DNA of 22,547 nucleotides from a virus: positions 1 to 22,547 of the IMG/VR virus record IMGVR_UViG_3300045988_137427. The stretch is one strand, 5' to 3'. Of this stretch, positions 1 through 22,547 are shown piece by piece. The notes beneath the pieces are model-generated. The model had not been told where the DNA came from. It saw only the letters and a program-made list of their open reading frames with translations, and searched no databases. Both the position numbers and the translations under genes were made by a program. Each line of letters begins with the position of its first letter. The first letter of the stretch is position 1.

Positions 1-75
1 ATTTTTTTTCGGAAGCAAAATATAAAAAGTCTACTTATATATAGACGAGAGCGAAGGAAGAATAGCTACCTTCCC
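1..75. repeat. Terminal direct repeat, copy 1 (identical to 22473..22547); circular-assembly overlap or terminal redundancy
   Basis: Bases 1-75 (ATTTTTTTTCGGAAGC...AATAGCTACCTTCCC) recur exactly as the last 75 bases of the window. Confidence 0.9.
24..40 (+). promoter_or_regulatory. Conserved motif AAAAAGTCTACTTATAT, copy 1 (duplicated at 22496..22512 by the terminal repeat)
   Basis: Near-identical to AAAAATCTACTTATA at 2121..2137 and 2404..2419. Lies about 115 nt upstream of the first gene and is followed by a GGAAG/CTTCC hairpin. No sigma-70 -35 hexamer at the correct spacing. Confidence 0.5.
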
Positions 76-155
76 TAAAGTGTAAGACACAATAGCCTTC
101 CATTGTGCTGCGCACTCTCGTTTTTATTATAAACGGAAGGCAAGGAAGGGTAATT

Positions 156-1115
156 ATGAAATTTGATATTGAAAATCGTCTCAAAGACACCGCAATAGTA
201 AATCTAACTGATTTTGAAAACGCCATTGATTTATATGAAGATGGTGAAATCGAAAAGGCATTGGAACTTATGTTTGGATTGACAGTATTAGGATTTGGCG
301 GTGATTTTGAAGCAGAAGATAGAGAAGTGCGCCGTCTACTGCGCAATAGAGCTTATACAGTTGCTAAAAGTAATGAGACTTACTGTAATAAGGTTTAGTC
401 TAAAGAGGCGGGGCAAAGAGCTAAACTCCAATTAGATGATATTGCCGAAATGATGGCCAATGGAGCAACACAACAAATTATAGCGGATACTCTTTGCGTG
501 AGCCTCGATACTATCAAGTATAGAGTAAAAGTGATGAAAGAAAAGTTTCCGTTCCTTTACGCCGAAGGAGTAAAAAAGTGTAAAAAAGTTGGAGTTAGTG
601 TGAGTAATGATAATGATAATGATAATGATAATGAGAAAGAAAATGACAAAGAGAATAGCGCTTCATCATCCTCTTTTACAGAAAGTCAAGGGTGGGAGAC
701 AGTAGAAAAAATGAAAGAGCTCCATCCTTTTGATGCTGCAAATTCAGTAGAAACAAAAGCTGATTTGATGGCTTTCGTTATCGCCTACAAAGGAGAAAAC
801 TTTGCCACTTCGCGCGTAAATCAACAAATCAAAGATACAAAAGTTTCTCCAAAAGATTGCGCCCGCGCCTTGTATTATCTTGACGCAAAGGAAATGAAAG
901 GTAGATTTTGCAAAGGAATAGAGCCTACCCTCTATCTTTGCCTAAAAGATGAAAATATTGTTTCTGCTAACAACTACTTTGAAAAAGAGATTGCTCAAAA
1001 AGAAGCAATTATGCATAGTTTTCAAGTTGCAGAAGAAAACAAAAAAATTATCCGTGTGCCCATTCCTTCATCAAAGAAAAAAACCCCAACATACAACATT
1101 GATGAAATCAATTGA
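156..1115 (+). CDS. Putative regulatory/replication-associated protein with an HTH segment (DUF6291-like N-terminus, from memory); 1 in-frame TAG
   Basis: ATG 156 follows AAGGAAGGG. Track ORFs 105..398 and 450..1115 are both frame 0, separated only by TAG 396-398, with no other stop in 399-449. HTH-like GATQQIIADTLCVSLDTIKYRV. Stop is TGA. The fusion is less certain than for the structural genes. Confidence 0.55.
606..634 (+). repeat. Hexanucleotide tandem repeat (AATGAT) x ~4.8, encoding NDNDNDNDN
   Basis: aatgataatgataatgataatgataatga read directly; in frame within CDS 156..1115. Confidence 0.9.
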
Positions 1116-1136
1116 ACCATATAGGAGGTAAATATA

Positions 1137-1979
1137 ATGTATATTGTCGAAGCCACAAGCAGCGAAAACCGCACAACCCACGGTTCTATGGGTGATTAGA
1201 CAGGCCGCGAAATTTGCGTATCCAACTTCTACTCCTATCCTTGGGATGTAGTGCTCTACTGCAAGGATGATACCTTACGGCGCAAGGCCGCGCAGATAGC
1301 CCAAGAAATAGCTTCCAATCCTTCTTTTGGCTACTCTCAACCTAACCGCTGGACGGGCTACAACTCAATCGTAGCTAATGGTGGTAAAGTTGCGGGCGCG
1401 CAAGGAGATTTTGACTGTAGCTCCTTGGTTATCTCTTGTTATGTTCTTGCGGGGCTTGCTATCCCTACCGGCACAGGCTACACAGGAACTATAGAACAAA
1501 CCTTCTTATCTACCGGTAAATTTGAAGCTCTGCGCGGGCAGCACATCTTAGATTATATGCGCGGGGCTATTGGGTGTATTTATCTGAACACCGCCAATCA
1601 CACAGCAATAGGAATTACTGATGAAGCATTGCGCCCGCGCTACACAACTCCGAGTGCTGCGGCCTCCATCCCATCCATTGATATAAAAGACACTACCGCC
1701 GCGAATTGGGGAGGAAAAATAACCGTCCCCTTAGATACTTGCTCTGTGAAGTTGCCTATGCTTCAAAATGGTAGTGTTGGCCATTCGGTAGCAATGCTCC
1801 AAACTCTACTTCTGGCTAATGGGGGCTCGTTGCCCACTTGTGGCGCTGATGGGGAATATGGTAATGAGACTTCCAACGCTGTGCGCGCGCTACAACAGAG
1901 TAATGGGCTTGACGTTGACGGCATTGTTGGCGCGCAAACCTGGGCTTGTCTGCTTTGGGGTGGAAAGCTCCAATTGTAA
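1137..1979 (+). CDS. Endolysin: cysteine-peptidase-type peptidoglycan hydrolase plus C-terminal PG_binding_1-like domain; 1 in-frame TAG
   Basis: AGGAGG at 1124-1129 then ATG 1137. TAG 1197-1199 (codon 21) is in frame with track ORF 1251..1979. NlpC/P60-like Cys motif GDFDCSSLV and later NHTAIGI. C-terminal GADGEYGNETSNAVRALQQSNGLDVDGIVGAQTW is a typical peptidoglycan-binding repeat. Stop is TAA. Confidence 0.8.
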
Positions 1980-1993
1980 GTTTGGCTCACATT

Positions 1994-2039
1994 GCGCGGG
2001 CTCCATAGATTTTATGAATGGAATTTATCCAGCCCGCGC
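1994..2039 (+). other. Stem-loop after the endolysin gene (GCGCGGGCT ... AGCCCGCGC, with inner TCCAT/ATGGA)
   Basis: 9-bp perfect outer stem at 1994-2002 and 2031-2039. No adjacent T-run, so terminator function is uncertain. Confidence 0.4.
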
Positions 2040-2081
2040 CTTACAATCCAAAAATCAATTTCCAAAATTTATTTTTGAAAA

Positions 2082-2137
2082 TTTCAAAACCCGCACCAAT
2101 TTTTTCTAAAGTGTAGCCTAAAAAATCTACTTATAAG
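2082..2137 (+). promoter_or_regulatory. Repeated ~55-nt element, copy A (TTTCAAAACCCGCACCAA...CTAAA...AAAAATCTACTTATAAG)
   Basis: Aligns by eye with 2366..2420 (TTTCAACCCTGCACCAAA...CTAAA...AAAAATCTACTTATATCC). Preceded by the palindrome TTTTGAAAATTTCAAAA at 2073-2089. Confidence 0.55.
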
Positions 2138-2368
2138 TGGAAGGGAAAAGAGAACTTTGCCATTCAACTATACTTCCTTCCGCACCTCCTATATTTATCT
2201 ATCTATTTATGCCTAACTTCTTGCTCTGTTAGGCTTTACCCTAAAACTAATCCCTTTTGGGATTAGTTCAGGTTGGAGATACAAGAGAAACACATTCGTC
2301 TCCTGTCCATCTTTCTTTTTCTCCGCTCTTTGTCTCTCCAATCTGAACTAACCCCAAAAATTTTTTTT
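2138..2368 (+). ncRNA. Candidate structured, CU-rich non-coding RNA between the two repeated elements
   Basis: No start codon or RBS in the only open frame. Hairpins at 2139-2181 (GGAAGG/CCTTCC), 2211-2234 (GCCTAAC/GTTAGGC) and 2247-2266 (CTAATCCC/GGGATTAG). A long imperfect hairpin pairs 2259-2287 with 2326-2355, followed by A5T8. ACCTCCT at 2184-2190. Confidence 0.4.
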
Positions 2369-2420
2369 CAACCCTGCACCAAATTTATCTAAACCCTATA
2401 CCCAAAAATCTACTTATATC
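2366..2420 (+). promoter_or_regulatory. Repeated ~55-nt element, copy B; candidate late-operon promoter/regulator site upstream of nuclease-TerS-TerL
   Basis: Same core AAAAATCTACTTATAT at 2404-2419. Followed by the hairpin GAGGC..GCCTC and the RBS of the gene starting at 2456. Confidence 0.55.
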
Positions 2421-2455
2421 CAGAGGCAAAGGAGAAGCCTCAAGGAGACGAAAAA

Positions 2456-2899
2456 ATGACTAATTCAGCACTCATCGGAAAGCAAGGTGAAGCTCTATTC
2501 AAATAGGTAATGAGCGCCAGCTACATAGTTGAAGATGTATCCAACTGTAGCGCCTATTGGGACAAGGACATAGACTTCCTTCTCACTAACCCGCGCACCG
2601 GCAATACCCGTTCTTTTGAAGTAAAGAATGATTGCCGCATAGCGGAAACAGGAAACCTCTACCTTGAACTAACAAACGTCCATTCTAAAGGTGGGCTTGG
2701 TTGGTATCGCTTCACGCAAGCCGACTTCCTCGCCTACTGCGACGCCACTACCAGCACCATATACATAATCCCAATGGATTAGCTCCGCGCCAAGTTGAAA
2801 GATATGCAACGGCGCATAGCGTATTGCGGGAATGATAGTTCCGGCTGGCTTGTCAAGCTTTCTGAAATTCAAAACCATATCAATATAACAATCCTGTAA
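2456..2899 (+). CDS. PD-(D/E)XK-type (YraN-like) nuclease; 2 in-frame TAGs
   Basis: AAGGAGA then ATG 2456. TAG 2504-2506 (codon 17) joins it to track ORF 2510..2782. TAG 2780-2782 is followed by 38 more open codons to TAA 2897-2899. Motif GKQGEALF...DIDFLL...SFEVKND fits the D...E-x-K nuclease core. Confidence 0.6.
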
Positions 2900-2911
2900 G
2901 GAGGTGAGCTT

Positions 2912-3286
2912 ATGCCGAAAAGTATGAAAGACATTGCAGCAAGGCAAAATGCCTTTCTTGATGCCTATCTCGAAAACCCCACCTTGTCGATGAAAGCTCA
3001 CGCCGAGCGATTAGGTATAAATGTCCGAACCGTATATAATTGGAAAGACAACAACATAAACGGCTTTGCAGATAAACTCCAAGAGCGACTATCCCGCAAG
3101 TGGGAAGAGGCCAAACAAATGGCTTCCGAATAGATGTTTTCTCTTGCTCGTGAAGGAGACTTCAAAGCAGTAAAATACATCCTTGACTACCACGGATACG
3201 CGCCAGCGCAAAAAGTAGAGGCTAAAGTTGATGCTAAAACCGTGATAAATGTATGTATAGGAGACGAACCTACTAATGGAGATTGA
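2912..3286 (+). CDS. terS: Terminase small subunit; 1 in-frame TAG
   Basis: AGGAGGTG then ATG 2912. N-terminal HTH-like segment (LGINVRTVYNW). TAG 3131-3133, then the frame continues as MFSLAREGDFKAVKYILDYHGYAPAQK, a motif typical of small terminases. TGA 3284-3286 overlaps the TerL start. Confidence 0.7.
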
Positions 3287-4514
3287 GCTCAATCTTTCTA
3301 AGGCTCTTTTCTCTCCTAAGCTCTTTCCTTTACTTTTTGACTACTCCCACCGTTGGGAAGTCTACCTTGGTGGCGCGGGTTCTGGTAAGTCTTACTTTAT
3401 AACCCAAAAGCTAATTGTTCGGTGTTTGCGCGAACCTATCAAGGTTCTTGTGTGCCGCCGCTATGCTACAACTATTCGTAATTCTTGCTTTGCGCTTTTC
3501 AAAGAAATCCTATCCAAATGGAAGCTTATGGAGTATGTCAAAATACGAGAAACAGACTTCAACATACGCTTTCCTAATGGTTCAGAAATAGTATTTATTG
3601 GGCTTGATGATGAAACCAAACTGCTTTCTCTAACCAATATATCTACTATATTTATTGAAGAGGTTTATGAAGTCTCTAAAGAAGTAGTAGAACAGCTCAA
3701 TTTGCGTATGAGAGGTAAAGCCAAAAACCAACAAATCCTTATGGCTTTCAACCCCATATCTAAGCACCATTGGCTTTATGATTTTTGCGAAGTGAGCCCG
3801 CCGCAAAGCTTCTATTTTTCTAAAACCACCTATAAGGATAATCCTTTTCTTTCTCCTGCCTACATTCAATCTCTTGAAGAACTCATCCAGCGCAACCCCG
3901 CCAAAGCGCGCATATATACTCAAGGCTTATGGGGTGTGCCTTCCGAAGGGCTTGTCCTCACGAATTGGACAGCAGAACAATTTGACATTCACACTCTTCT
4001 TGAAGCTCGCCAATTAGAACACCGTTGCGGGATGGACTTAGGCTTCGTAGATAAAACCGCAATCATTGATAGTTGGTATGACGCGCCCGCGCGCACAATA
4101 TACATTACAAACGAATTTTACAAATCTGGTTGCCAGCTCTCTGAATTAGCGGATGCAATTACCTCTATGGGGCTTTCCAAATCGAAGCTTTGTGTAGATG
4201 CAGCAGAACCGCGCACAATCCAATTCTTTCGCATTCAAGGTATAAATGCTGTGCCTTGCGCGAAGGGTAAAGACAGCGGGAAAGCCGGGCTTATGTTTCT
4301 GCAAGATAACAAGCTCATTGTTTCTCCGTCTTGCGTGAACCTCATAACCGAGCTGGAAAACTTCTCATACATCAAATCCAAACAAACCGGAGAATACACC
4401 GACGATACCACCCACGAATGGAGCCACGCTATTGATGCTCTGCGTTATGGGTATTCTGATATATACACGAATAAGAAGCTAAAGACGCTTGATAAGAGCG
4501 TTTTAGGGCTGTAA
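3276..4514 (+). CDS. terL: Terminase large subunit (PBSX-like); TAG-free
   Basis: 412 aa uninterrupted. Walker A GGAGSGKS near the N-terminus and a C-terminal nuclease-type region (HAIDALRY). Positioned after terS. Confidence 0.9.
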   Translation: MEIELNLSKALFSPKLFPLLFDYSHRWEVYLGGAGSGKSYFITQKLIVRCLREPIKVLVCRRYATTIRNSCFALFKEILSKWKLMEYVKIRETDFNIRFPNGSEIVFIGLDDETKLLSLTNISTIFIEEVYEVSKEVVEQLNLRMRGKAKNQQILMAFNPISKHHWLYDFCEVSPPQSFYFSKTTYKDNPFLSPAYIQSLEELIQRNPAKARIYTQGLWGVPSEGLVLTNWTAEQFDIHTLLEARQLEHRCGMDLGFVDKTAIIDSWYDAPARTIYITNEFYKSGCQLSELADAITSMGLSKSKLCVDAAEPRTIQFFRIQGINAVPCAKGKDSGKAGLMFLQDNKLIVSPSCVNLITELENFSYIKSKQTGEYTDDTTHEWSHAIDALRYGYSDIYTNKKLKTLDKSVLGL

Positions 4515-4526
4515 GGAGGTAAACCA

Positions 4527-4829
4527 TTGGTAGATTATTTATATGACGTAATCAAAGCCGTAGCCGGTGAAGAATTGCAAATTGCGGCGGTAATTACTGA
4601 TGAGAATGGCGCGGACATTAGTGAGGGTTGTGTGCTTGTTCTGGCTTTTGGACAGCACGCAGAACCACACGCACAATTTGATGGAACATTTACTGCCTCC
4701 AATAAAGGAGGTTTTTGGAGCTTTGTGGTTCCTGCCGCGGCCACAAAGGGAGAACACAAACTTTGGTATAAGGTAATGAAGGATGGAGAGAGTTTGTCTT
4801 TCTATCGGCCTTTGTATTTGGAGGGTTGA
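4527..4829 (+). CDS. Small hypothetical protein, possibly Ig-like/beta-sandwich; TAG-free
   Basis: GGAGG at 4516-4520 then a TTG start at 4527. 100 aa with no recognisable catalytic motif. Confidence 0.5.
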   Translation: MVDYLYDVIKAVAGEELQIAAVITDENGADISEGCVLVLAFGQHAEPHAQFDGTFTASNKGGFWSFVVPAAATKGEHKLWYKVMKDGESLSFYRPLYLEG

Positions 4830-12856: not shown

Positions 12857-13263
12857 TGGAAGGGGGCTCGCAAAATGTAGCCCCCTTTCTTTACACAGAT
12901 AAGATAGTTGAGTTGTTAGATAAGGCTCTTGATTGGGGTATTGGGGAATTTGACTTTTGGAATATGACGCTCACCGAATTGGAGCGCTTGCTCAAAAGTA
13001 AACAGCGCAGACAAAAGAACGAACTTCAAGAAAAAGCTTTCTTTGACTACAGACTTGCTCAACTGATAGGCGTTAGTGTAGGGCGCATATATGATAGTAA
13101 GTGCTCTCTGCCCTCTTTGGAAGATGCCTATCCAACTATTTTTGACAGAGAAAAATTACAAGAGGAAAAGCAAGCTCAAACAGATGAGTTATCTGCTTTG
13201 AGATTTAGATAGTTCGCGCATACCTATAATATGAAATATGGAGGGGATGCGAATAATGAATGA
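12518..13263 (+). CDS. Tail assembly chaperone -1 frameshift product (G-T-like); additional in-frame TAG in the extension
   Basis: Frame 2 shifts to frame 1 at 12847-12853. The -1 frame is open to TAG 13210-13212 and then for 16 more codons to TGA 13261-13263, overlapping the tape measure start. Confidence 0.6.
12847..12853 (+). promoter_or_regulatory. -1 programmed ribosomal frameshift slippery heptamer A_AAA_AAC
   Basis: The zero-frame codons are gaa aaa aac taa. The -1 frame then reads aaa aaa cta atg into track ORF 12856..13212. Hairpin GGGGGCT..AGCCCCC starts at 12863, about 9 nt downstream of the slippery heptamer. Confidence 0.7.
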
Positions 13264-15337
13264 AGAATTGAAAGTTATTATAAAGGCCGAAATTGCCCAA
13301 TTCAAACAAGGAATAGAGTAGGCTAAAAGCTCCATTCAAGGCTTCAAAGCAAAAGTAAATTCAATGAAAGGCGAAGCCGATAAAGTCATAAAGAAAATGG
13401 GTAAATCCTTCGCAGACTTGGGAAAGAAAATTGCAAAGGCGTTCGTTGCCGGATGTGCGGCGGCGGGTGCTGCGGTTTTAGCTCTTGGTAAGAAAGCGCT
13501 AAGTGCTTATAGCGATTATGAACAGTTAGTTGGCGGTATTGATATGCTATTCAAAGAGAATAGCCAAACCGTTCAAGCCTACGCGCGCGACGCTTACAAA
13601 AACCAATAGATGAGCGCTAATCAGTATATGGAAATGGCTACCTCATTTAGTGCTGGCCTCATTGCGAGCGTTGGCGGCGATACTGCCAAGGCCGCGCAAA
13701 TCGCAGATATGGCTATTACAGATATGGCCGACAATGCGAACCGTATGGGTAGCACTATGGAAAGCATTCAAAACGCTTACCAAGGTTTTGCAAAATAGAA
13801 TTATACAATGCTCGATAACCTCAAATTAGGCTATGGTGGCACAAAGCAAGAAATGGAACGTTTACTTGCCGACGCTACAAAGCTCACAGGTATCAAGTAT
13901 GATATAAATAATCTTTCAGACGTATATGAGGCAATCCACGCCATTCAGACAGAAATGGGCATTACCGGCGCGACAGCAGACGAGGCCGCGAAAACAATTC
14001 AAGGCTCTGTTGCTATGATGAAAGCCGCGTGGACAAACTGGCTTGTTGGCTTGATGGATGATAACGCCGATATTGGGCAGCTCACCAAGGATTTGATTAG
14101 TTCTGTAGGGACTGTAATTGATAATATCAAGCCAAGAGTAAAGCAATTCTTCCAGAGTTTTGTAGAGGGTGTCCACACCGCATTAGAGCCCTACCCCGCA
14201 CTTCAAGCAATGTTTGACGGAATTGTGAACGCGCTACAAACTGTATAGAATACAGTAAGCGCTGTGGTGGGTTTTGTCGTGCAAAATTGGGCAACACTTC
14301 AACCCATTCTTATAGCCGTTGCCGCGGTTATTGGCGTAATTGTCGCCGCCGTAGCGATGTATAACGCGGTTGCCGCTATAAAGCTTGCTATGGATGCCGC
14401 GCAAGTAGCTACTTTGGGAGCACTCGCCGCAGCTACTTGGGCAGCTCTCGCGCCATACTTGCTTATCGCCGCAGCCATTGCCGCGCTCATTGCAATTATT
14501 GTTCTTTGCATTACTCATTGGGACGCTATCAAAGCGAAAGTAAGCGAAGTATGCGCCGCGATTGCTAACTTTGTTTCAAGTATGGTTGGCAAGGTAAAAG
14601 AGTGGTTTGGCAATATGAAATCTGCCATTTCTGAAAAGGTTGATGCTATAAAGGCAGAAGCAAGTGAAAAATGGGCTACCATCAAAGGCGTAATTACCAA
14701 TGCTGTCGCCGCAGCCAAAGAGCAGACACAAGCTCACCTTTCCGCTATGAAGTAGGCTTATGAAGAAAATGGCGGCGGTATCAAGGGTATTGTTGCCGCG
14801 TTAGGCGCTGGATTGAAGAGTATCTTTTCAAGTGCATATGCTTCTATTGATGCTCTAACAGGTGGTAAACTTTCTGCTATCCGTGATAAGTTCAGTAATA
14901 TTCTTGGACAAGCCCGTGATAAGGTGAAGGGTATTATTGATAAAATCAAGAGCTTCTTCAATTTCAATTGGAGCTTGCCGCACTTGAAGATGCCTCATAT
15001 CTCTATTTCCGGTAGTTTTAGTCTCTCCCCGCCGAGCGTGCCCAGGTTCGCAATTAGTTGGTATGCGCGCGGCGGTGTGTTCGATGCGCCTACTCTGTTC
15101 AACTATGGGAATGGTGCTCTTGGAGGATTAGGCGAGCACGGCGCGGAAGCGGTTGTCCCTCTGGAAAACAATACCGAATGGCTTGATAAAATTGCCGAAC
15201 GTCTTGCCGCAGGAATGGGTGGAAGTAATACACCTATTGTTCTCCAAGTAGACGGAAAGACATTTGCAGAAATTAGTGTTGATAGTATCAACGCGCTTAC
15301 ACGTCAACGCGGTAGTCTTGGAATAAATCTTGTGTAA
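13256..15337 (+). CDS. Tail tape measure protein; 5 in-frame TAGs
   Basis: GGAGGGG then ATG 13256. Five track ORFs (13364, 13610, 13808, 14264, 14813) are all in frame 2, joined only by TAG 13319, 13607, 13796, 14246 and 14753. Conserved tape-measure motif YQGFAK[TAG]NYTMLDNLKLGYGGTKQEMERLL. Hydrophobic Ala-rich central segment. Stop is TAA. Confidence 0.9.
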
Positions 15338-18990: not shown

Positions 18991-19890
18991 ATGGGAACTT
19001 GGACAACAACAGCCCCAACTCTTCCTTCTGGTGCATAGTGGCTACAAGGTAAAACAATAGCTGGTAGTTCAAACCATTGGACAATAAGTGGCACTATTTA
19101 TATTGCCTCGATGGGCTCCAACCAATTTGCCGTGCGTATGGCGATGTGGAACGGAAATGGCTCATATGGAACTTACTATCCTCCAAGTAAGTGGAATTTG
19201 ACTTGCCAAGGTAATACAACTACCCAATTCTCTGTATCAAAAGGAAGATAGACTTTTTACTATATTGGGGAAGCAACCGCGGGCACATCAATTACCACGT
19301 CCTTCAATCAAGGTGATAGTGCAATCGCGCAACAAAAGGTAGTTTAGACTGTCCCAACTGGACAAGAGCCTAAAGCCATTTGGACAAACTCCGCTCCAAC
19401 TCTCCCACAAGATAGCGCCTATGAGCAAAATAAAACTTTTTCCGGTGGTTCAAACCATTGGGCAATGAGCGGTAGCGCTTCTATTGCACGTTTAGATGGA
19501 AATCAATTTGTTATAAAATTAGTTGCAACAAGCTCTAACGGCTCGTATGGAACTTATTATGCCCCAAATGATTGGATGTTGCGTTGTGATGTTGGAGATA
19601 GCGTAGGTGGATGGGATACTTCTTTTAGTATGACTAAAGGAACATCTACATATTACTATATTGGAGAAGCTTCACCCAATACTACTATCAAAGTATACGT
19701 CAACGGTGCTGGTGGAACTGGAAGCGCTGTAGCAACGCAAACTATGACTTTTACCGCGCCAGCCTCCTTAGCAATTTTGGTATATGTGAATGTAAATGGA
19801 ACTTGGAAACAGGCTACTCCTTGGGTGAATATAGGGGGAACTTGGAAACAAGTTGTTCCGTATATAAATAATGCGGGCACTTGGAAATAA
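18991..19890 (+). CDS. Tail-associated protein with an internal ~125-aa duplication and C-terminal GTWK repeats; 3 in-frame TAGs
   Basis: GAGGTGA then ATG 18991. Frame 1 is open to TAA, with TAG 19036, 19249 and 19345. Repeats are GTWTTTAPTLPSGA..SSNHWTISG..GSYGTYYPPSKW..FYYIGEA versus IWTNSAPTLPQDSA..GSNHWAMSG..GSYGTYYAPNDW..YYYIGEA. Confidence 0.7.
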
Positions 19891-19907: not shown

Positions 19908-20132
19908 ATGGACTTTCAACCGATTGTTGAAGTAGTGCTACAGTAGGGTATTTGGTGTGCCCTCTTTGTATGGCTCTTCTACATCAATAAGAAAGAAGCT
20001 ACCGCGCGCGAGGAACGTTTGAACGGCATTGTGGATGAGCAGAAAGAAACACTAAAGGAAATCTCTCAATCTCTCATTCTACTCAATGAGCGCATTGAGA
20101 AGGTAGAAGAGAAAATTTTAGGCAATGACTAA
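19908..20132 (+). CDS. BhlA/UviB-family holin-like protein; 1 in-frame TAG
   Basis: GGAGG then ATG 19908. TAG 19944-19946 is codon 13. VVLQ[TAG]GIWCALFVWLFYINKKE followed by a charged helix matches the remembered BhlA pattern (..TQGPFAVLFCWLLFY..). Stop is TAA. Confidence 0.7.
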
Positions 20133-20137
20133 AAGAA

Positions 20138-20159
20138 GGGATAGGCTACGGCCTATCCC
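20138..20159. terminator. Bidirectional terminator hairpin GGGATAGGC-TACG-GCCTATCCC between holin (+) and integrase (-)
   Basis: 9-bp perfect stem with a T-rich flank (TTTCTC) on the + side. Located between convergent genes. Confidence 0.7.
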
Positions 20160-20166
20160 TTTCTCA

Positions 20167-21138
20167 TTATCTTACCTTTTTGGTTCTCTCATATTTCTTT
20201 TTGGCTTTGTCTAATGGGTTGAACTCGTTTATATCCTCACTCAAATCATTACCATAGAGCTTGACATAGTTCTTCGTCATATCAAGCGTAGAATGTCCAA
20301 GCAATTTCTGTAGCTTGAAGGGGGAACCATCGGCTAAAATCCATTCCCGCGCGAAAGTATGCCGGATACCGTGAAGGGAAGTTTTATCTACCCCGCGCTT
20401 ATGGGAGTAAGTAGCGTATGCTTTGCGGATAGCGTTTCCACTAAGTTTTTCACCCGAAATACTACAAAACAGATAATCACTTGCGCGGGCGTCGCTTCTC
20501 CACATTTTGATGTATTCGCGCAAAACAGAAGCAAGAGCATTTGAGATTGGAATTACTTGAGGCTTTTTGTTCTTAGTGTGGGTGTAGACAATACGCTTGC
20601 TTTTCAAGTCTACTGTGCCTACAGCCAAATTACAGATAGTATCTTCTCTCGCGCCAGTAGCATAGATGAAGTTTACAATAGCCCACATACGCCATTCAAC
20701 AAATTCATCTTTGTGAATGGGCTTGCGCAAGAGCAAATCCATTTCTTCTTTAGAGTAGTCTTTGGGAAGCTCTTCCTGTGTTTTGGTGAGCTGAACTTTT
20801 AGCTTTCCGGTGATATATCCTTTATTCTTACACCAGTTTACGAACGTCCGCATATCTCTTAGATAATGGTTGATAGACTGCGGGCGAATACCATCACTCT
20901 TTAGCGCGGCCATCCATTCAAAGATAGTATCTTCTGTGAGTTCAGAACAAAGAAAAGTATCTCCATCAATTTCACCTTCAAAGGACTGGAGAAAGCGCTG
21001 ATAAGACTTCTGATAGCTTTCTACTGTTGCCGCTGAACGCTGGAGCGCTTCTTTCTCAATAATGAACTTGTTGAAAGCGTCCTCCAAGCAAACGCCGACA
21101 GGATTAGAAGCTCGCCGAATTTTTTTAGGAACACCCAT
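20167..21138 (-). CDS. int: Tyrosine recombinase / phage integrase; TAG-free
   Basis: 323 aa uninterrupted. C-terminal catalytic pattern HGIRHTFAREW...LLGHSTLDMTKNYVKLY (R..H-x-x-R..H..Y). N-terminal SAM-like core-binding region. Stop is TAA. Confidence 0.9.
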   Translation of the reverse strand: MGVPKKIRRASNPVGVCLEDAFNKFIIEKEALQRSAATVESYQKSYQRFLQSFEGEIDGDTFLCSELTEDTIFEWMAALKSDGIRPQSINHYLRDMRTFVNWCKNKGYITGKLKVQLTKTQEELPKDYSKEEMDLLLRKPIHKDEFVEWRMWAIVNFIYATGAREDTICNLAVGTVDLKSKRIVYTHTKNKKPQVIPISNALASVLREYIKMWRSDARASDYLFCSISGEKLSGNAIRKAYATYSHKRGVDKTSLHGIRHTFAREWILADGSPFKLQKLLGHSTLDMTKNYVKLYGNDLSEDINEFNPLDKAKKKYERTKKVR

Positions 21139-21319: not shown

Positions 21320-21360
21320 TGATTACGAATCAGCTGCACTACCGACTGTGCTATGCCAGC
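21320..21360 (-). other. 5' two-thirds of a tRNA-Thr(CGU)-like gene (positions 1 to ~41); candidate attP core
   Basis: The - strand reads GCTGGCA TA GCAC AGTCGGTA GTGC A GCTGA TTCGTAA TCA. It has U8, A14, G18G19, U33 and anticodon CGT. No complementary 3' anticodon-stem strand, T-arm or 3' acceptor strand follows. Confidence 0.6.
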
Positions 21361-21400
21361 GTAATTTTTCTTGATTTTTCAAGGGTTTTTGACTGCCGGG

Positions 21401-21961: not shown

Positions 21962-22306
21962 TTACTTTCCGTATTTCCGCAAAAGGCTCTCTGCCCAAGT
22001 CTCTTTATGCGCCGTGCCCTTGACGATAGAGGGGAAGAACTTCTTGGCAAACTCCGCGCGGACACTGACGAACGGGTTGGCTTGCTCAACCACTTTCTTT
22101 TCTCCGTCCTTACCCTTTTCAAATTGCACTTTTTTGGTAGCTACACCAATGAGCCATTCAATTTCGTTGTGCGCCACACAGTAGTTCTCAATGAACTCTT
22201 GGCAGATGTCGCTTATCTGCGTGGGGATGAAGTCTGCGTCAATGCGGTATTGAGTGGAAACCTCTTCGCCCTTGGACTTGTGGGTTTTTGTAATGAATTG
22301 CGCCAT
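21962..22306 (-). CDS. Hypothetical 114-aa protein on the lysogeny/early side; TAG-free
   Basis: Strong RBS (AAAGAGGAGG) 7 nt upstream of the ATG on the - strand. Uninterrupted, with a TAA stop. Divergent from the first + strand gene across the circle junction. No family recognised. Confidence 0.65.
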   Translation of the reverse strand: MAQFITKTHKSKGEEVSTQYRIDADFIPTQISDICQEFIENYCVAHNEIEWLIGVATKKVQFEKGKDGEKKVVEQANPFVSVRAEFAKKFFPSIVKGTAHKETWAESLLRKYGK

Positions 22307-22472: not shown

Positions 22473-22547
22473 ATTTTTTTTCGGAAGCAAAATATAAAAA
22501 GTCTACTTATATATAGACGAGAGCGAAGGAAGAATAGCTACCTTCCC
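22473..22547. repeat. Terminal direct repeat, copy 2 (identical to 1..75)
   Basis: Exact 75-nt match to the window start. Confidence 0.9.

What the first reader, a model, noticed from the sequence alone, without database searches (positions are those of the whole stretch)
1137..1979. Both lysis genes are amber-gated, and the lysis cassette is split across the genome
The endolysin (1137..1979) has TAG at codon 21 and the BhlA-type holin (19908..20132) has TAG at codon 13. Neither can be made without suppression.

The two genes are also not adjacent. The holin ends the late tail operon. The endolysin lies about 3.5 kb further around the circle, beyond the integrase/attP module and directly downstream of the HTH regulator gene, so it is presumably in a different transcription unit.

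Amber gating fits the published hypothesis that recoding times lysis. The split arrangement is unusual for siphoviruses of Firmicutes.
Basis: partly seen in the sequence, partly recalled or inferred. Interest (0 to 1): 0.65.

Follow-up and report, generated by a model that had tools for sequence, protein, structure and literature searches.

The report
Amber-recoded gut phage, split lysis genes
This is a complete 22.5-kb temperate gut phage that reads the stop codon TAG as glutamine in almost all its lytic-cycle genes, so the TAGs in its two lysis genes are real but not special, and the separation of those two genes comes from module shuffling in an already described phage group.

Summary
The ELLD+PG_binding_1 endolysin (1137..1979) has an in-frame TAG at codon 21. 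The BhlA-type holin (19908..20132) has one at codon 13. Both lie inside the Pfam domains and both align with Gln in homologs.

The TAGs are not specific to lysis. The window is a circular 22,472-bp genome with 39 in-frame TAGs in 20 of 27 genes, and the lysis genes carry TAG at or below the genome-wide rate (Fisher p=1.0). The TAG positions also move between Gln sites in relatives. What is gated is the whole lytic programme, not lysis timing. The integrase is TAG-free.

This matches the small TAG-recoded "Topaz" prophages of Oscillospiraceae described by Borges et al., including an attP that resembles tRNA-Thr(CGT).

The split layout is real and conserved in every close relative that spans both genes (at least five independent contigs). 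Sister TAG-recoded phages keep a contiguous holin / small TM protein / CHAP-LysM lysin cassette. One standard-code relative has its lysin between terS and terL. So the lysin position varies in this family and does not depend on recoding.

No suppressor tRNA was found in this complete genome or in 50 related loci. How TAG is decoded remains the real open question.

The parts
1137..1979 (+). Endolysin: N-terminal ELLD (NlpC/P60-like Cys-His) catalytic domain plus C-terminal PG_binding_1 wall-binding domain, 280 aa
   Evidence: Pfam ELLD 4.9e-39 and PG_binding_1 1.3e-14. D93-C94-S95 and, in the 24-sequence alignment, H155 are invariant. Many homologs also hit NLPC_P60. The AF2 model has pLDDT 84. 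BFVD matches are phage peptidoglycan hydrolases.
1197..1199 (+). In-frame TAG, lysin codon 21, read as Gln
   Evidence: Aligns with the Q of the GDQTGxE motif. The TAG is conserved in L001-L003.
19908..20132 (+). BhlA-family holin-like protein, 74 aa, single N-terminal TM segment; last gene of the structural/tail operon
   Evidence: Pfam Holin_BhlA 35.2 bits, above the cut-off of 22.6. It has 24 homologs of 55-100% identity.
19944..19946 (+). In-frame TAG, holin codon 13, read as Gln
   Evidence: Q in 21 of 23 homologs. In relatives the TAG sits at codon 12 or codon 45 instead.
156..1115 (+). reg319: putative HTH regulator directly upstream of the lysin, with one TAG at codon 81
   Evidence: PHROG 3855 'HTH DNA binding protein', E=2.9e-4. 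A similarly placed 220-aa protein in L008 has DUF6291 plus Sigma70_r4_2; its homology to reg319 is inferred from position and a shared Asn/Asp-rich repeat, not from a BLAST hit. The neighbour in this slot varies: a DNA methylase in L002 and other ORFs in L050.
1994..2039 (+). GC-rich hairpin just after the lysin stop; terminator-like but without a clean U-tract
   Evidence: dG -29.1 kcal/mol, z -4.9. The stems are conserved and the loop varies among relatives.
4..50 (+). Copy 1 of a ~50-nt repeat element (core AAAAAGTCTACTTATA), upstream of reg319-lysin; candidate phage-specific promoter
   Evidence: Conserved at the same place in L001, L046-L049 and L052.
2082..2146 (+). Copy 2 of the repeat element, downstream of the lysin hairpin
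2365..2429 (+). Copy 3 of the repeat element, 27 nt upstream of orf147, which heads the packaging/structural operon ending in the holin
2137..2375 (+). Highly conserved, strongly structured non-coding stretch ending in a long hairpin plus T-run; ncRNA or packaging (cos/pac) region
   Evidence: dG -64.4 kcal/mol, z -7.95. Nearly invariant in 8 relatives. No Rfam match.
2456..4514 (+). orf147 (PD-(D/E)XK-like by motif), terS and terL: start of the packaging/structural operon
   Evidence: Pfam Terminase_3 and HTH_Tnp_1_2. The order lysin / orf147 / terS / terL is conserved.
20136..20161 (.). 11-bp GC-rich hairpin between the convergent holin and integrase genes; probable bidirectional terminator
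   Evidence: the scan scored it on the minus strand only. Sequence.
20167..21138 (-). Tyrosine integrase, TAG-free, with atypical Gln codon usage (CAG 8 : CAA 1, against 54 : 189 for the genome)
   Evidence: Pfam Phage_integrase 6.9e-27. Codon counts.
21320..21379 (-). attP-like core: about 17 nt of flank plus the first 41 nt of a tRNA-Thr(CGT) gene
   Evidence: 41 nt are 97.6% identical, and 60 nt are 88-90% identical, to complete tRNA-Thr(CGT) genes on bacterial contigs of 98 and 203 kb.
21962..22306 (-). orf114: TAG-free gene divergent from reg319; candidate lysogeny or maintenance gene
   Evidence: No Pfam or PHROG hit.
22473..22547 (.). Terminal duplicate of bases 1-75 (assembly overlap of a circular contig)

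Best explanation
The window is the complete circular genome (22,472 bp) of a temperate siphovirus-like phage of an uncultured gut Clostridia host, probably Oscillospiraceae-like. It uses genetic code 15 (TAG = Gln) for essentially its whole lytic programme.

The TAGs at lysin codon 21 and holin codon 13 are ordinary Gln codons of that code. In a cell that terminates at TAG, the lysin stops after 20 residues and the holin after 12. The same applies to the putative regulator, terS, portal, capsid, tape-measure and tail proteins. The integrase and orf114 remain translatable. The code therefore separates lysogeny functions from the lytic programme as a whole, as proposed for 'Topaz' prophages. It does not time lysis specifically.

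The lysis functions are split because this sub-lineage underwent a module exchange at the right end of the tail operon. Sister phages carry BhlA holin / 65-aa two-TM protein / CHAP+LysM lysin / tRNA-Thr / integrase(+). Here only the BhlA gene remains, abutting a convergent integrase with foreign codon usage. Lysin function is provided by an unrelated ELLD+PG_binding_1 enzyme at the end of the reg319 unit, just upstream of the packaging genes. By recall, this resembles the lambda order Q / lysis genes / cos / terminase.

Shown: the coding facts, the domain identities, Gln at TAG, gene order in relatives, and the absence of a tRNA.

Inferred: that the ELLD protein is the lysis enzyme; that the three copies of the repeat element are promoters that co-regulate the lysin unit and the operon ending in the holin; and that the phage integrates at tRNA-Thr.
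For: Recoding:
- ORF coverage on the + strand rises from 0.63 to 0.91 only when TAG is read as sense.
- There are 39 in-frame TAG and no in-frame TAA or TGA. All 27 genes end in TAA or TGA.
- Gln is the commonest residue opposite the window's TAGs in relatives: 121, against 48 for E, in HSPs below 80% identity.
- TAG aligns with the conserved Q in both the lysin and the holin.

Not lysis-specific:
- Lysin observed 1, expected 1.6. Holin observed 1, expected 0.43. Fisher p=1.0. No 5' bias.
- TAG sites shift among relatives.

ELLD as an endolysin:
- Domain architecture and the conserved Cys and His.
- A homolog lies directly after a Phage_holin_6_1 gene in L057, and another lies next to a two-TM ORF in L056.
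- BFVD structural matches are phage peptidoglycan hydrolases.
- No other lysin domain was found in the 19 largest or key proteins scanned.

Layout:
- Conserved in every close relative that spans both genes: L001, L046-L050 and L052, which include at least five distinct contigs.
- Contiguous cassette in the TAG-recoded relatives L041-L045.
- CHAP+PG_binding_1 lysin between terS and terL in standard-code L004.

Topaz-like identity: genome size, TAG recoding, TAG-free integrase, tRNA-Thr attachment site and Clostridia-type host contigs.

Shared repeat element.
Against: - No suppressor tRNA, release factor or tRNA synthetase was found in this complete genome or in 50 related loci. The step that turns TAG into Gln is therefore unexplained.
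- The putative first lytic regulator (reg319) itself contains a TAG, which is awkward for a phage-autonomous switch.
- TAG avoidance in the window's integrase plus orf114 is not significant on its own (0 of 15 Gln codons, p=0.24). It relies on the published clade-level statistic.
- The ELLD domain has no confident structural neighbour in the PDB, and no enzymatic activity is shown.
- The promoter role of the repeat element is inference only. It does not match a sigma-70 consensus.
- Membership in the named Topaz clade was not tested against reference genomes.
Confidence: 0.8

Rival explanations
1. One reading: the TAGs in the lysin and holin are a dedicated timing gate, so that lysis proteins appear only once an amber suppressor accumulates late in infection.
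For: Both lysis genes carry an early TAG (codons 21 and 13), which gives a complete block. The lysin TAG is conserved in close relatives. Lysis genes are preferentially recoded in crAss-like and Agate phages.
Against: TAG density in the lysis genes is at or below the genome mean, and TAG is not preferred over CAA/CAG there (Fisher p=1.0). Twenty of 27 genes share the feature, including the presumptive early regulator. TAG positions are not conserved outside the near-identical clade. There is no phage suppressor tRNA whose accumulation could act as a timer.
Confidence: 0.1
2. The phage depends on an amber-suppressing activity supplied in trans. This could be host-encoded and conditional, or come from a co-resident recoded phage. 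Alternatively the phage makes a non-tRNA factor, such as an RF1 inhibitor or the conserved structured RNA at 2137-2375, that lets host tRNA-Gln read UAG. In either case the code acts as an external licence for the whole lytic cycle, lysis included.
For: This complete circular genome has no tRNA, even in relaxed, circular and intron-tolerant scans or with Rfam at E<=1. None of 50 related loci has a CUA-anticodon tRNA. The regulator gene has a TAG. Candidate host contigs rarely end genes in TAG, about 1 of 16 long ORFs, so read-through would cost the host little. Borges et al. found suppressor tRNAs in only 40% of TAG-recoded genomes.
Against: There is no direct evidence for any such factor. The structured region may simply be a packaging site plus terminator. 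Only about 20 kb of candidate host sequence could be examined. The phage carries a full structural module and is not satellite-like.
Confidence: 0.3
3. The ELLD+PG_binding_1 protein is not the lysis endolysin. It could be a moron, an entry-associated hydrolase or a cell-wall remodelling hydrolase. In that case lysis would rely on the BhlA-like protein together with host autolysins or an unrecognised enzyme.
For: The gene lies outside the usual lysis position, next to a variable cargo slot that holds reg319, a methylase or other ORFs. In L001 a 414-nt deletion removes its wall-binding domain. The ELLD fold has no solved counterpart.
Against: A catalytic domain followed by a wall-binding domain, without a signal peptide, is the typical Gram-positive endolysin design. 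ELLD homologs sit in classical holin-lysin cassettes in other phages. No alternative lysin is present in the genome. The gene is retained in all 15 contigs of the clade.
Confidence: 0.08
4. The TAGs are inactivating nonsense mutations in a decaying prophage, or assembly errors.
For: Under the standard code the genes are fragmented.
Against: Only TAG interrupts genes: 39 TAG against no TAA or TGA. The TAGs align with Gln. The same TAGs recur in independent assemblies from many samples, which are circular and about 22 kb. Sequence downstream of C-terminal TAGs remains conserved (compare orf116 and orf135 with L041).
Confidence: 0.01

Closest known systems
'Topaz' clade of TAG-recoded prophages (Borges et al., bioRxiv 10.1101/2021.08.26.457843; later published in Nature Microbiology 2022, by recall)
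   Same: Genome of about 22 +/- 3 kb and circular. TAG recoding of structural and lysis genes. TAG-free integrase. Firmicutes (Oscillospiraceae) host that uses the standard code. Prophage bounded by the integrase and tRNA-Thr. The window has all of these or their sequence signatures. Relatives L042, L044 and L045 carry a tRNA-Thr next to the integrase.
   Different: Borges et al. describe the structural and lysis genes of Topaz as one contiguous recoded unit. Here the lysin lies 3.5 kb around the circle from the holin, about 19 kb away in the inferred prophage, beyond the integrase and attP. It is a different enzyme (ELLD+PG_binding_1 rather than CHAP+LysM), and the integrase is inverted. Clade membership was not tested against their reference genomes.
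Preferential recoding of lysis genes in crAss-like (TAG) and Agate (TGA) phages
   Same: Lysis proteins cannot be made until the recoded stop is read as sense.
   Different: Those phages are virulent and large, carry suppressor tRNAs, and show a statistically significant excess of recoded codons in lysis genes. Here there is no excess and no suppressor tRNA.
Phage lambda late-region order Q / S-R-Rz / cos / Nu1-A (from general knowledge, not tested here)
   Same: A regulator gene, then a lysis enzyme gene, then a non-coding structured region, then the terminase genes, all on one strand.
   Different: In lambda the holin is beside the endolysin. Here the holin stays at the far end of the tail operon. 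The regulator's function and the cos/pac site are not established.
Firmicutes phages without a lysis cassette, such as Bacillus phages Deep-Blue and Vp4 (PMC9327680)
   Same: The holin and endolysin genes are unlinked.
   Different: Those are myoviruses that use the standard code and are unrelated to this phage.
Standard-code relative L004 (MAG contig JAFYKO010000115.1, Clostridia bacterium)
   Same: Same structural module (terL 55% identical). The lysin carries PG_binding_1 and is embedded in the packaging module. A small two-TM ORF follows the tail genes.
   Different: The lysin has a CHAP catalytic domain and lies between terS and terL. Three TAG codons fall inside tblastn HSPs, but ORF coverage is already 0.87 under the standard code.

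Membership tests
Genetic code 15 (TAG = Gln) phage | Many conserved genes are interrupted only by in-frame TAG and become full length when TAG is read as sense | tested here: met
   39 TAG and no TAA or TGA in frame, in 20 of 27 genes. + strand ORF coverage rises from 0.63 to 0.91.
Genetic code 15 (TAG = Gln) phage | TAG positions align with glutamine in homologs | tested here: met
   Q is the top residue opposite window TAGs (121, against 48 for the next, in HSPs below 80% identity). The lysin GDQTG motif and holin position 13 agree.
Genetic code 15 (TAG = Gln) phage | TAG is not needed as a terminator | tested here: met
   All 27 genes end in TAA (19) or TGA (8) with tidy junctions. This is partly true by construction. 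However, sequence after the two C-terminal TAGs (orf116 and orf135) remains conserved in L041.
Genetic code 15 (TAG = Gln) phage | Phage-encoded suppressor tRNA(CUA). This is frequent but not defining: it was detected in 40% of TAG-recoded genomes. | tested here: not met
   ARAGORN in default, circular, intron-tolerant and relaxed modes, and Rfam at E<=1, found none. None was found in 50 related loci.
Topaz clade (Borges et al.) | Small (~22 kb) circular or integrating genome with TAG recoding and a TAG-free integrase | tested here: met
   22,472 bp and circular. The integrase has no TAG in 323 codons.
Topaz clade (Borges et al.) | Integration at tRNA-Thr in a standard-code Oscillospiraceae host | tested here: inconclusive
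   The attP-like segment matches the 5' 41 nt of tRNA-Thr(CGT) genes on long bacterial contigs that read as standard code and resemble Clostridia/Ruminococcaceae MAGs. No integrated copy was recovered: all 15 contigs carrying this integrase are 22.6 kb or shorter.
Topaz clade (Borges et al.) | Phylogenetic grouping with the reference Topaz genomes | not testable with these tools
   The reference genomes, such as pig_ID_1851_F40_2_B1_scaffold_1589, are not on hand.
BhlA holin family (PF10960) | Profile match above the gathering score, with an N-terminal TM segment and a charged or coiled C-terminus | tested here: met
   35.2 bits against a cut-off of 22.6, residues 5-67. The sequence shows a hydrophobic stretch at about residues 6-25 followed by a charged tail.
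BhlA holin family (PF10960) | Membrane-permeabilising (holin) activity | not testable with these tools
   This needs expression and lysis assays. PHROGs labels the family 'bacteriocin production or immunity'.
ELLD (PF25309) endolysins | Profile match above the gathering score, with a conserved Cys/His pair | tested here: met
   134.5 bits against a cut-off of 27. D93-C94-S95 are invariant; H155 is invariant in the 24-sequence alignment and nearly invariant in the 51-sequence one.
ELLD (PF25309) endolysins | Use as the lysis enzyme next to a holin | tested here: inconclusive
   True for homologs in L057 and probably L056. In the window the gene is not next to a holin.
Canonical holin-endolysin cassette of Firmicutes siphoviruses | Holin and endolysin genes adjacent, downstream of the tail genes | tested here: not met
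   The holin is followed by a hairpin and a convergent integrase. The lysin is 3,477 nt further round the circle.
Lysis-biased recoding (crAss-like and Agate type) | Lysis gene families use the recoded stop significantly more than the standard synonymous codons | tested here: not met
   2 TAG among 18 Gln codons (TAG+CAA+CAG) against 37 among 264 elsewhere, Fisher p=1.0.

The most novel reading that the evidence does not exclude
This phage lineage has no suppressor tRNA at all, yet every lytic function needs UAG read as Gln, including the putative first regulator and both lysis proteins. Induction and lysis would then be licensed by an amber-suppressing activity that is not a phage tRNA. That activity could be supplied in trans by the host or a co-resident recoded phage. 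It could also be a phage protein or the conserved structured RNA at 2137-2375 that disables RF1 so that host tRNA-Gln reads UAG.
Probability: 0.3. Interest if true: 0.75.

Novelty: new member of a known kind. Interest (0 to 1): 0.3.

Why it matters
The main value is corrective. In a genome-wide code-15 phage, amber codons in the lysis genes are expected and do not by themselves show a lysis timer. That claim needs an enrichment test, and the test fails here.

The phage is still a compact and frequently recovered example. At least 15 contigs carry its exact integrase, from human gut samples that include Hadza and Peruvian cohorts. Its lysogeny genes are readable in the standard code and nearly the whole lytic programme is not. 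It has no tRNA of its own.

That makes it a tractable case for an open question in the field: how recoded phages without suppressor tRNAs get UAG decoded. The lysin relocation also shows that lysin modules move freely within this family, independently of genetic code.

Tried and rejected
- True start downstream of the TAG: rejected. The Pfam domains and homolog alignments span the TAGs.
- A second endolysin near the holin: none found. The tail proteins and orf299 have no hydrolase domain.
- A hidden suppressor tRNA: ARAGORN was run in circular, intron-tolerant and relaxed modes. The only 'cta' call appears at 60-70% stringency, inside the tape-measure gene, among 60-115 spurious calls. Rfam at E<=1 gave only three weak, unrelated hits.
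- TGA or TAA recoding of the window: rejected, because the coverage gain is smaller.
- 5' positional bias of TAGs as a design feature: not found.
- PDB fold search for the ELLD domain: only the PG_binding_1 domain matched, and the PDB sequence search gave the same result.
P0001, which is 96% identical, was used instead.
- Megablast of window 1-4600 against INPHARED phages: no match, although BFVD holds a 96%-identical 140-aa fragment from 'Siphoviridae sp. ctNEy24'.
- Integrated copies with host flanks: none among the 15 contigs carrying the exact integrase.
- The sigma-70 promoter scan gave no more hits than shuffled sequence.
Full report
**What is in the window.** The first 75 nt equal the last 75 nt, so this is a circular contig of 22,472 unique bases with 42.6% GC. 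Under the standard code the ORFs are fragmented. Reading TAG as sense gives one tidy chain of + strand genes, and + strand ORF coverage rises from 0.63 to 0.91. Reading TGA or TAA as sense gives smaller gains.

The gene order is as follows:
- reg319, a putative HTH protein (156-1115).
- ELLD+PG_binding_1 lysin (1137-1979).
- A 476-nt non-coding region.
- orf147, terS and terL (2456-4514).
- orf100, orf367 and orf127.
- SPP1-type portal, MuF-like protein, scaffold and capsid.
- Connector and tail genes, then the tape-measure gene (13256-15337).
- Three tail proteins and orf299.
- BhlA-type holin (19908-20132).
- On the minus strand, a tyrosine integrase (20167-21138) and orf114 (21962-22306).

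**Checking the observation.** The lysin ATG at 1137 has a strong RBS. Its only internal stop is TAG at 1197-1199, codon 21. The Pfam ELLD domain spans residues 4-162. The TAG aligns with the Q of a nearly invariant GDQTGxE motif in 23 homologs. Some homologs carry this motif in a permuted position after the catalytic His (P0060 and P0100), so it belongs to the fold. The first possible in-frame restart, GTG at 1251, would delete it.

The holin TAG is at 19944-19946, codon 13. It lies inside the Holin_BhlA match (residues 5-67) and aligns with Q in 21 of 23 homologs. The distance from the holin to the lysin around the circle is 3,477 nt. No other wall-hydrolase domain was found in the 19 largest or key proteins scanned.

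**The TAGs are not specific to lysis.** I counted 39 in-frame TAGs in 20 of 27 genes and no in-frame TAA or TGA. Every gene ends in TAA (19) or TGA (8). Residues opposite the window's TAGs in related phages are mostly Gln: 121, against 48 for E and 47 for K, in HSPs below 80% identity. TAG is therefore a general Gln codon, about 14% of Gln codons.
- The lysin has 1 TAG against 1.6 expected. The holin has 1 against 0.43 expected.
- TAG as a share of all Gln codons is 2 of 18 in the lysis genes and 37 of 264 elsewhere (Fisher p=1.0).
- TAG positions along genes do not differ from uniform (KS p=0.53) or from CAA/CAG positions (p=0.76).
- The TAG site drifts between lineages. In related holins it is at codon 12 (L041, L042) or codon 45 (L045).
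- In another TAG-recoded phage (L056), the ELLD lysin has four TAGs and none is at the GDQTG Gln.

TAG-free genes are the integrase, orf114, terL, orf100, orf127, orf97 and the major-tail-like orf134. For the integrase plus orf114 alone this is not significant (p=0.24). In relatives L041 and L045, the integrase and the three (L041) or two (L045) ORFs just after it are also TAG-free.

**Relation to published work.** Borges et al. (bioRxiv 10.1101/2021.08.26.457843) describe a 'Topaz' clade with these properties:
- Genomes of 22 +/- 3 kb.
- TAG-recoded structural and lysis genes.
- Integrases that strongly avoid TAG.
- A 23.7-kb prophage in an Oscillospiraceae contig, bounded by the integrase and tRNA-Thr.

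The window fits this description. Its relatives L042, L044 and L045 carry tRNA-Thr(CGT) beside the integrase. The window itself has, at 21320-21379 on the minus strand, a segment matching about 17 nt of flank plus the first 41 nt of tRNA-Thr(CGT). The exact 33-mer occurs in complete tRNA-Thr genes on bacterial contigs of 98 and 203 kb. Genes on those contigs are intact under the standard code, and about 1 of 16 long ORFs ends in TAG. The nearest named homologs of an 811-aa protein from one contig come from Clostridia, Ruminococcaceae and Oscillospiraceae MAGs at roughly 31-46% identity. I could not test clade membership against the authors' reference genomes.

The same paper's lysis-timing argument rests on statistically preferential recoding of lysis genes in crAss-like and Agate phages, together with phage suppressor tRNAs. 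Neither applies here. The data fit better their second hypothesis, in which the code separates lysogeny functions from the lytic programme.

**Is the ELLD protein the endolysin?** The evidence for this reading:
- The architecture, a catalytic domain followed by PG_binding_1 with no signal peptide, is typical of a Gram-positive endolysin.
- D93-C94-S95 are invariant, and H155 is invariant or nearly so.
- Many homologs also hit NLPC_P60, which points to a papain-like Cys-His peptidase.
- The AlphaFold model of the 96%-identical P0001 is confident (pLDDT 84; ELLD blocks mostly above 90).
- In BFVD the ELLD domain matches phage proteins annotated as peptidoglycan hydrolases or endolysin-like, with TM 0.5-0.64 and rmsd about 2 Å.
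- A homolog (P0016, ELLD+SH3_3) lies directly after a Phage_holin_6_1 gene in L057. P0012 in L056 is followed by a two-TM 72-aa ORF.

In the PDB, only the PG_binding_1 part finds neighbours such as phiKZ gp144 and SleB. I consider the endolysin assignment likely. No activity is shown.

**The split layout.** Every close relative that spans both genes shows the same order. These are L001, L046-L050 and L052, which include at least five distinct contigs; all 15 contigs with the identical integrase are about 22 kb or shorter. The order is tail genes / holin | convergent integrase … variable gene(s) / ELLD lysin / non-coding region / orf147 / terS / terL. The gene just upstream of the lysin varies: reg319, a DNA methylase in L002, or other ORFs in L050.

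More distant TAG-recoded relatives (L041-L045) keep a contiguous cassette of BhlA holin / 65-aa two-TM protein / CHAP+LysM lysin / (tRNA-Thr) / integrase on the same strand. A standard-code relative, L004, has a CHAP+PG_binding_1 lysin between terS and terL and a small two-TM ORF after the tail genes.

The lysin position is therefore variable in this family and independent of recoding. The window's integrase uses CAG 8: CAA 1 for Gln, against 54: 189 for the genome. That fits a module replacement at the holin / integrase junction which removed the old lysin.

Unlinked holin and endolysin genes have precedent in Firmicutes phages: Deep-Blue and Vp4 'display no lysis cassette' (PMC9327680). By recall, the regulator / lysin / non-coding region / terminase order also resembles lambda's Q / S-R-Rz / cos / Nu1-A.

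**Transcription (inferred).**
- A hairpin at 1994-2039 (dG -29 kcal/mol, z -4.9) follows the lysin. Its stems are conserved and its loop varies among relatives.
- An 11-bp GC-rich hairpin at 20136-20161 separates the holin from the convergent integrase; the scan scored its T-run on the minus strand.
- A ~50-nt repeat element (core AAAAA[G/A]TCTACTTATA) occurs three times. It lies upstream of reg319-lysin (4-50), after the lysin hairpin (2082-2146) and just before orf147 (2365-2429). There are 4 hits, counting the terminal duplicate, against 0.55 expected. It is conserved at the same positions in L001, L046-L049 and L052.

If these elements are phage-specific promoters, the lysin unit and the long operon ending in the holin are separate transcripts under one regulatory signal. 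That would keep the split genes co-ordinated. The element does not match a sigma-70 consensus.

**What remains unexplained.** No tRNA was found in this complete genome by ARAGORN in default, circular, intron-tolerant or relaxed modes, or by Rfam at E<=1. No CUA-anticodon tRNA was found in 50 related loci, and no release factor or synthetase gene is present. Even the putative regulator has a TAG. Borges et al. report suppressor tRNAs in only 40% of TAG-recoded genomes, so the gap is known. Here it can be stated for a complete 22-kb genome. The conserved, strongly folding non-coding stretch at 2137-2375 (z -7.95) has no Rfam match. It may be a packaging site with a terminator, or an RNA of unknown role.

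**Verdict.** This is a new member, with a rearranged lysis module, of an already described kind of recoded prophage. It is of modest interest in itself. The more interesting open point is how UAG is decoded without a phage tRNA.

Noticed in passing
window 4-50, 2082-2146, 2365-2429: Three + strand copies of a ~50-nt element (core AAAAA[G/A]TCTACTTATA). They lie upstream of reg319-lysin, after the lysin hairpin, and upstream of orf147 and the late operon. The element is conserved at the same places in L001, L046-L049 and L052. It is a candidate phage-specific promoter or operator.
   Followed up: partly
window 2137-2375: Nearly invariant non-coding stretch that folds very strongly as RNA (dG -64 kcal/mol, z -7.95). 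It has a long hairpin (2255-2352) followed by a T-run and no Rfam match. It could be an ncRNA or a cos/pac region just upstream of the packaging genes.
   Followed up: partly
whole window; loci L001-L055: No tRNA of any kind in the complete genome, and no CUA-anticodon tRNA in any of the 50 related loci scanned (L046-L055 were not scanned), even though TAG is used as Gln in 20 of 27 genes.
   Followed up: yes
window 21320-21379 (minus strand); L059-L063: attP-like core matching about 17 nt of flank plus the first 41 nt of tRNA-Thr(CGT). Empty attB sites lie on 98-kb and 203-kb bacterial contigs that resemble uncultured Clostridia/Oscillospiraceae. These contigs read as standard code and rarely end genes in TAG (about 1 of 16 long ORFs).
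   Followed up: partly
window 20167-21138 (minus strand): The integrase uses CAG 8 : CAA 1 for Gln, while the whole genome uses CAG 54 : CAA 189. This suggests the integrase module was acquired recently from another source, at the junction where sister phages carry their lysin.
   Followed up: no
L031 and L038 (IMG/VR relatives, terL 59-60% identical): In-frame TGA codons align with Trp in terL, portal and MuF HSPs. The same phage family therefore contains standard-code, TAG=Gln and TGA=Trp members.
   Followed up: no
L001 10001-10798: This close relative has a deletion of about 414 nt that removes the lysin's PG_binding_1 domain and about 70 nt downstream. The called ORF then runs through TAGs into the non-coding region.
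   Followed up: no
L041 16375-17621; L045 6224-8021: In TAG-recoded relatives, terL is split into a 35-aa and a 353-aa ORF in L041. In L045 it is preceded by an HNH/NUMOD4 homing-endonuclease gene. This suggests an intron or intein-like insertion in terL.
   Followed up: no
window 18991-19890: orf299 is an internal tandem duplication: two ~127-aa halves with a 381-nt period (repeats D3, D4 and D6). It also has C-terminal 'N(V/I)xGTWK' repeats. It is a probable tail fibre or receptor-binding protein.
   Followed up: no
window 600-660: reg319 contains a (GATAAT)n-type Asn/Asp-rich low-complexity tract (NDNDNDNDNEKENDKEN). A similar tract occurs in a similarly placed protein of standard-code L008.
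   Followed up: no
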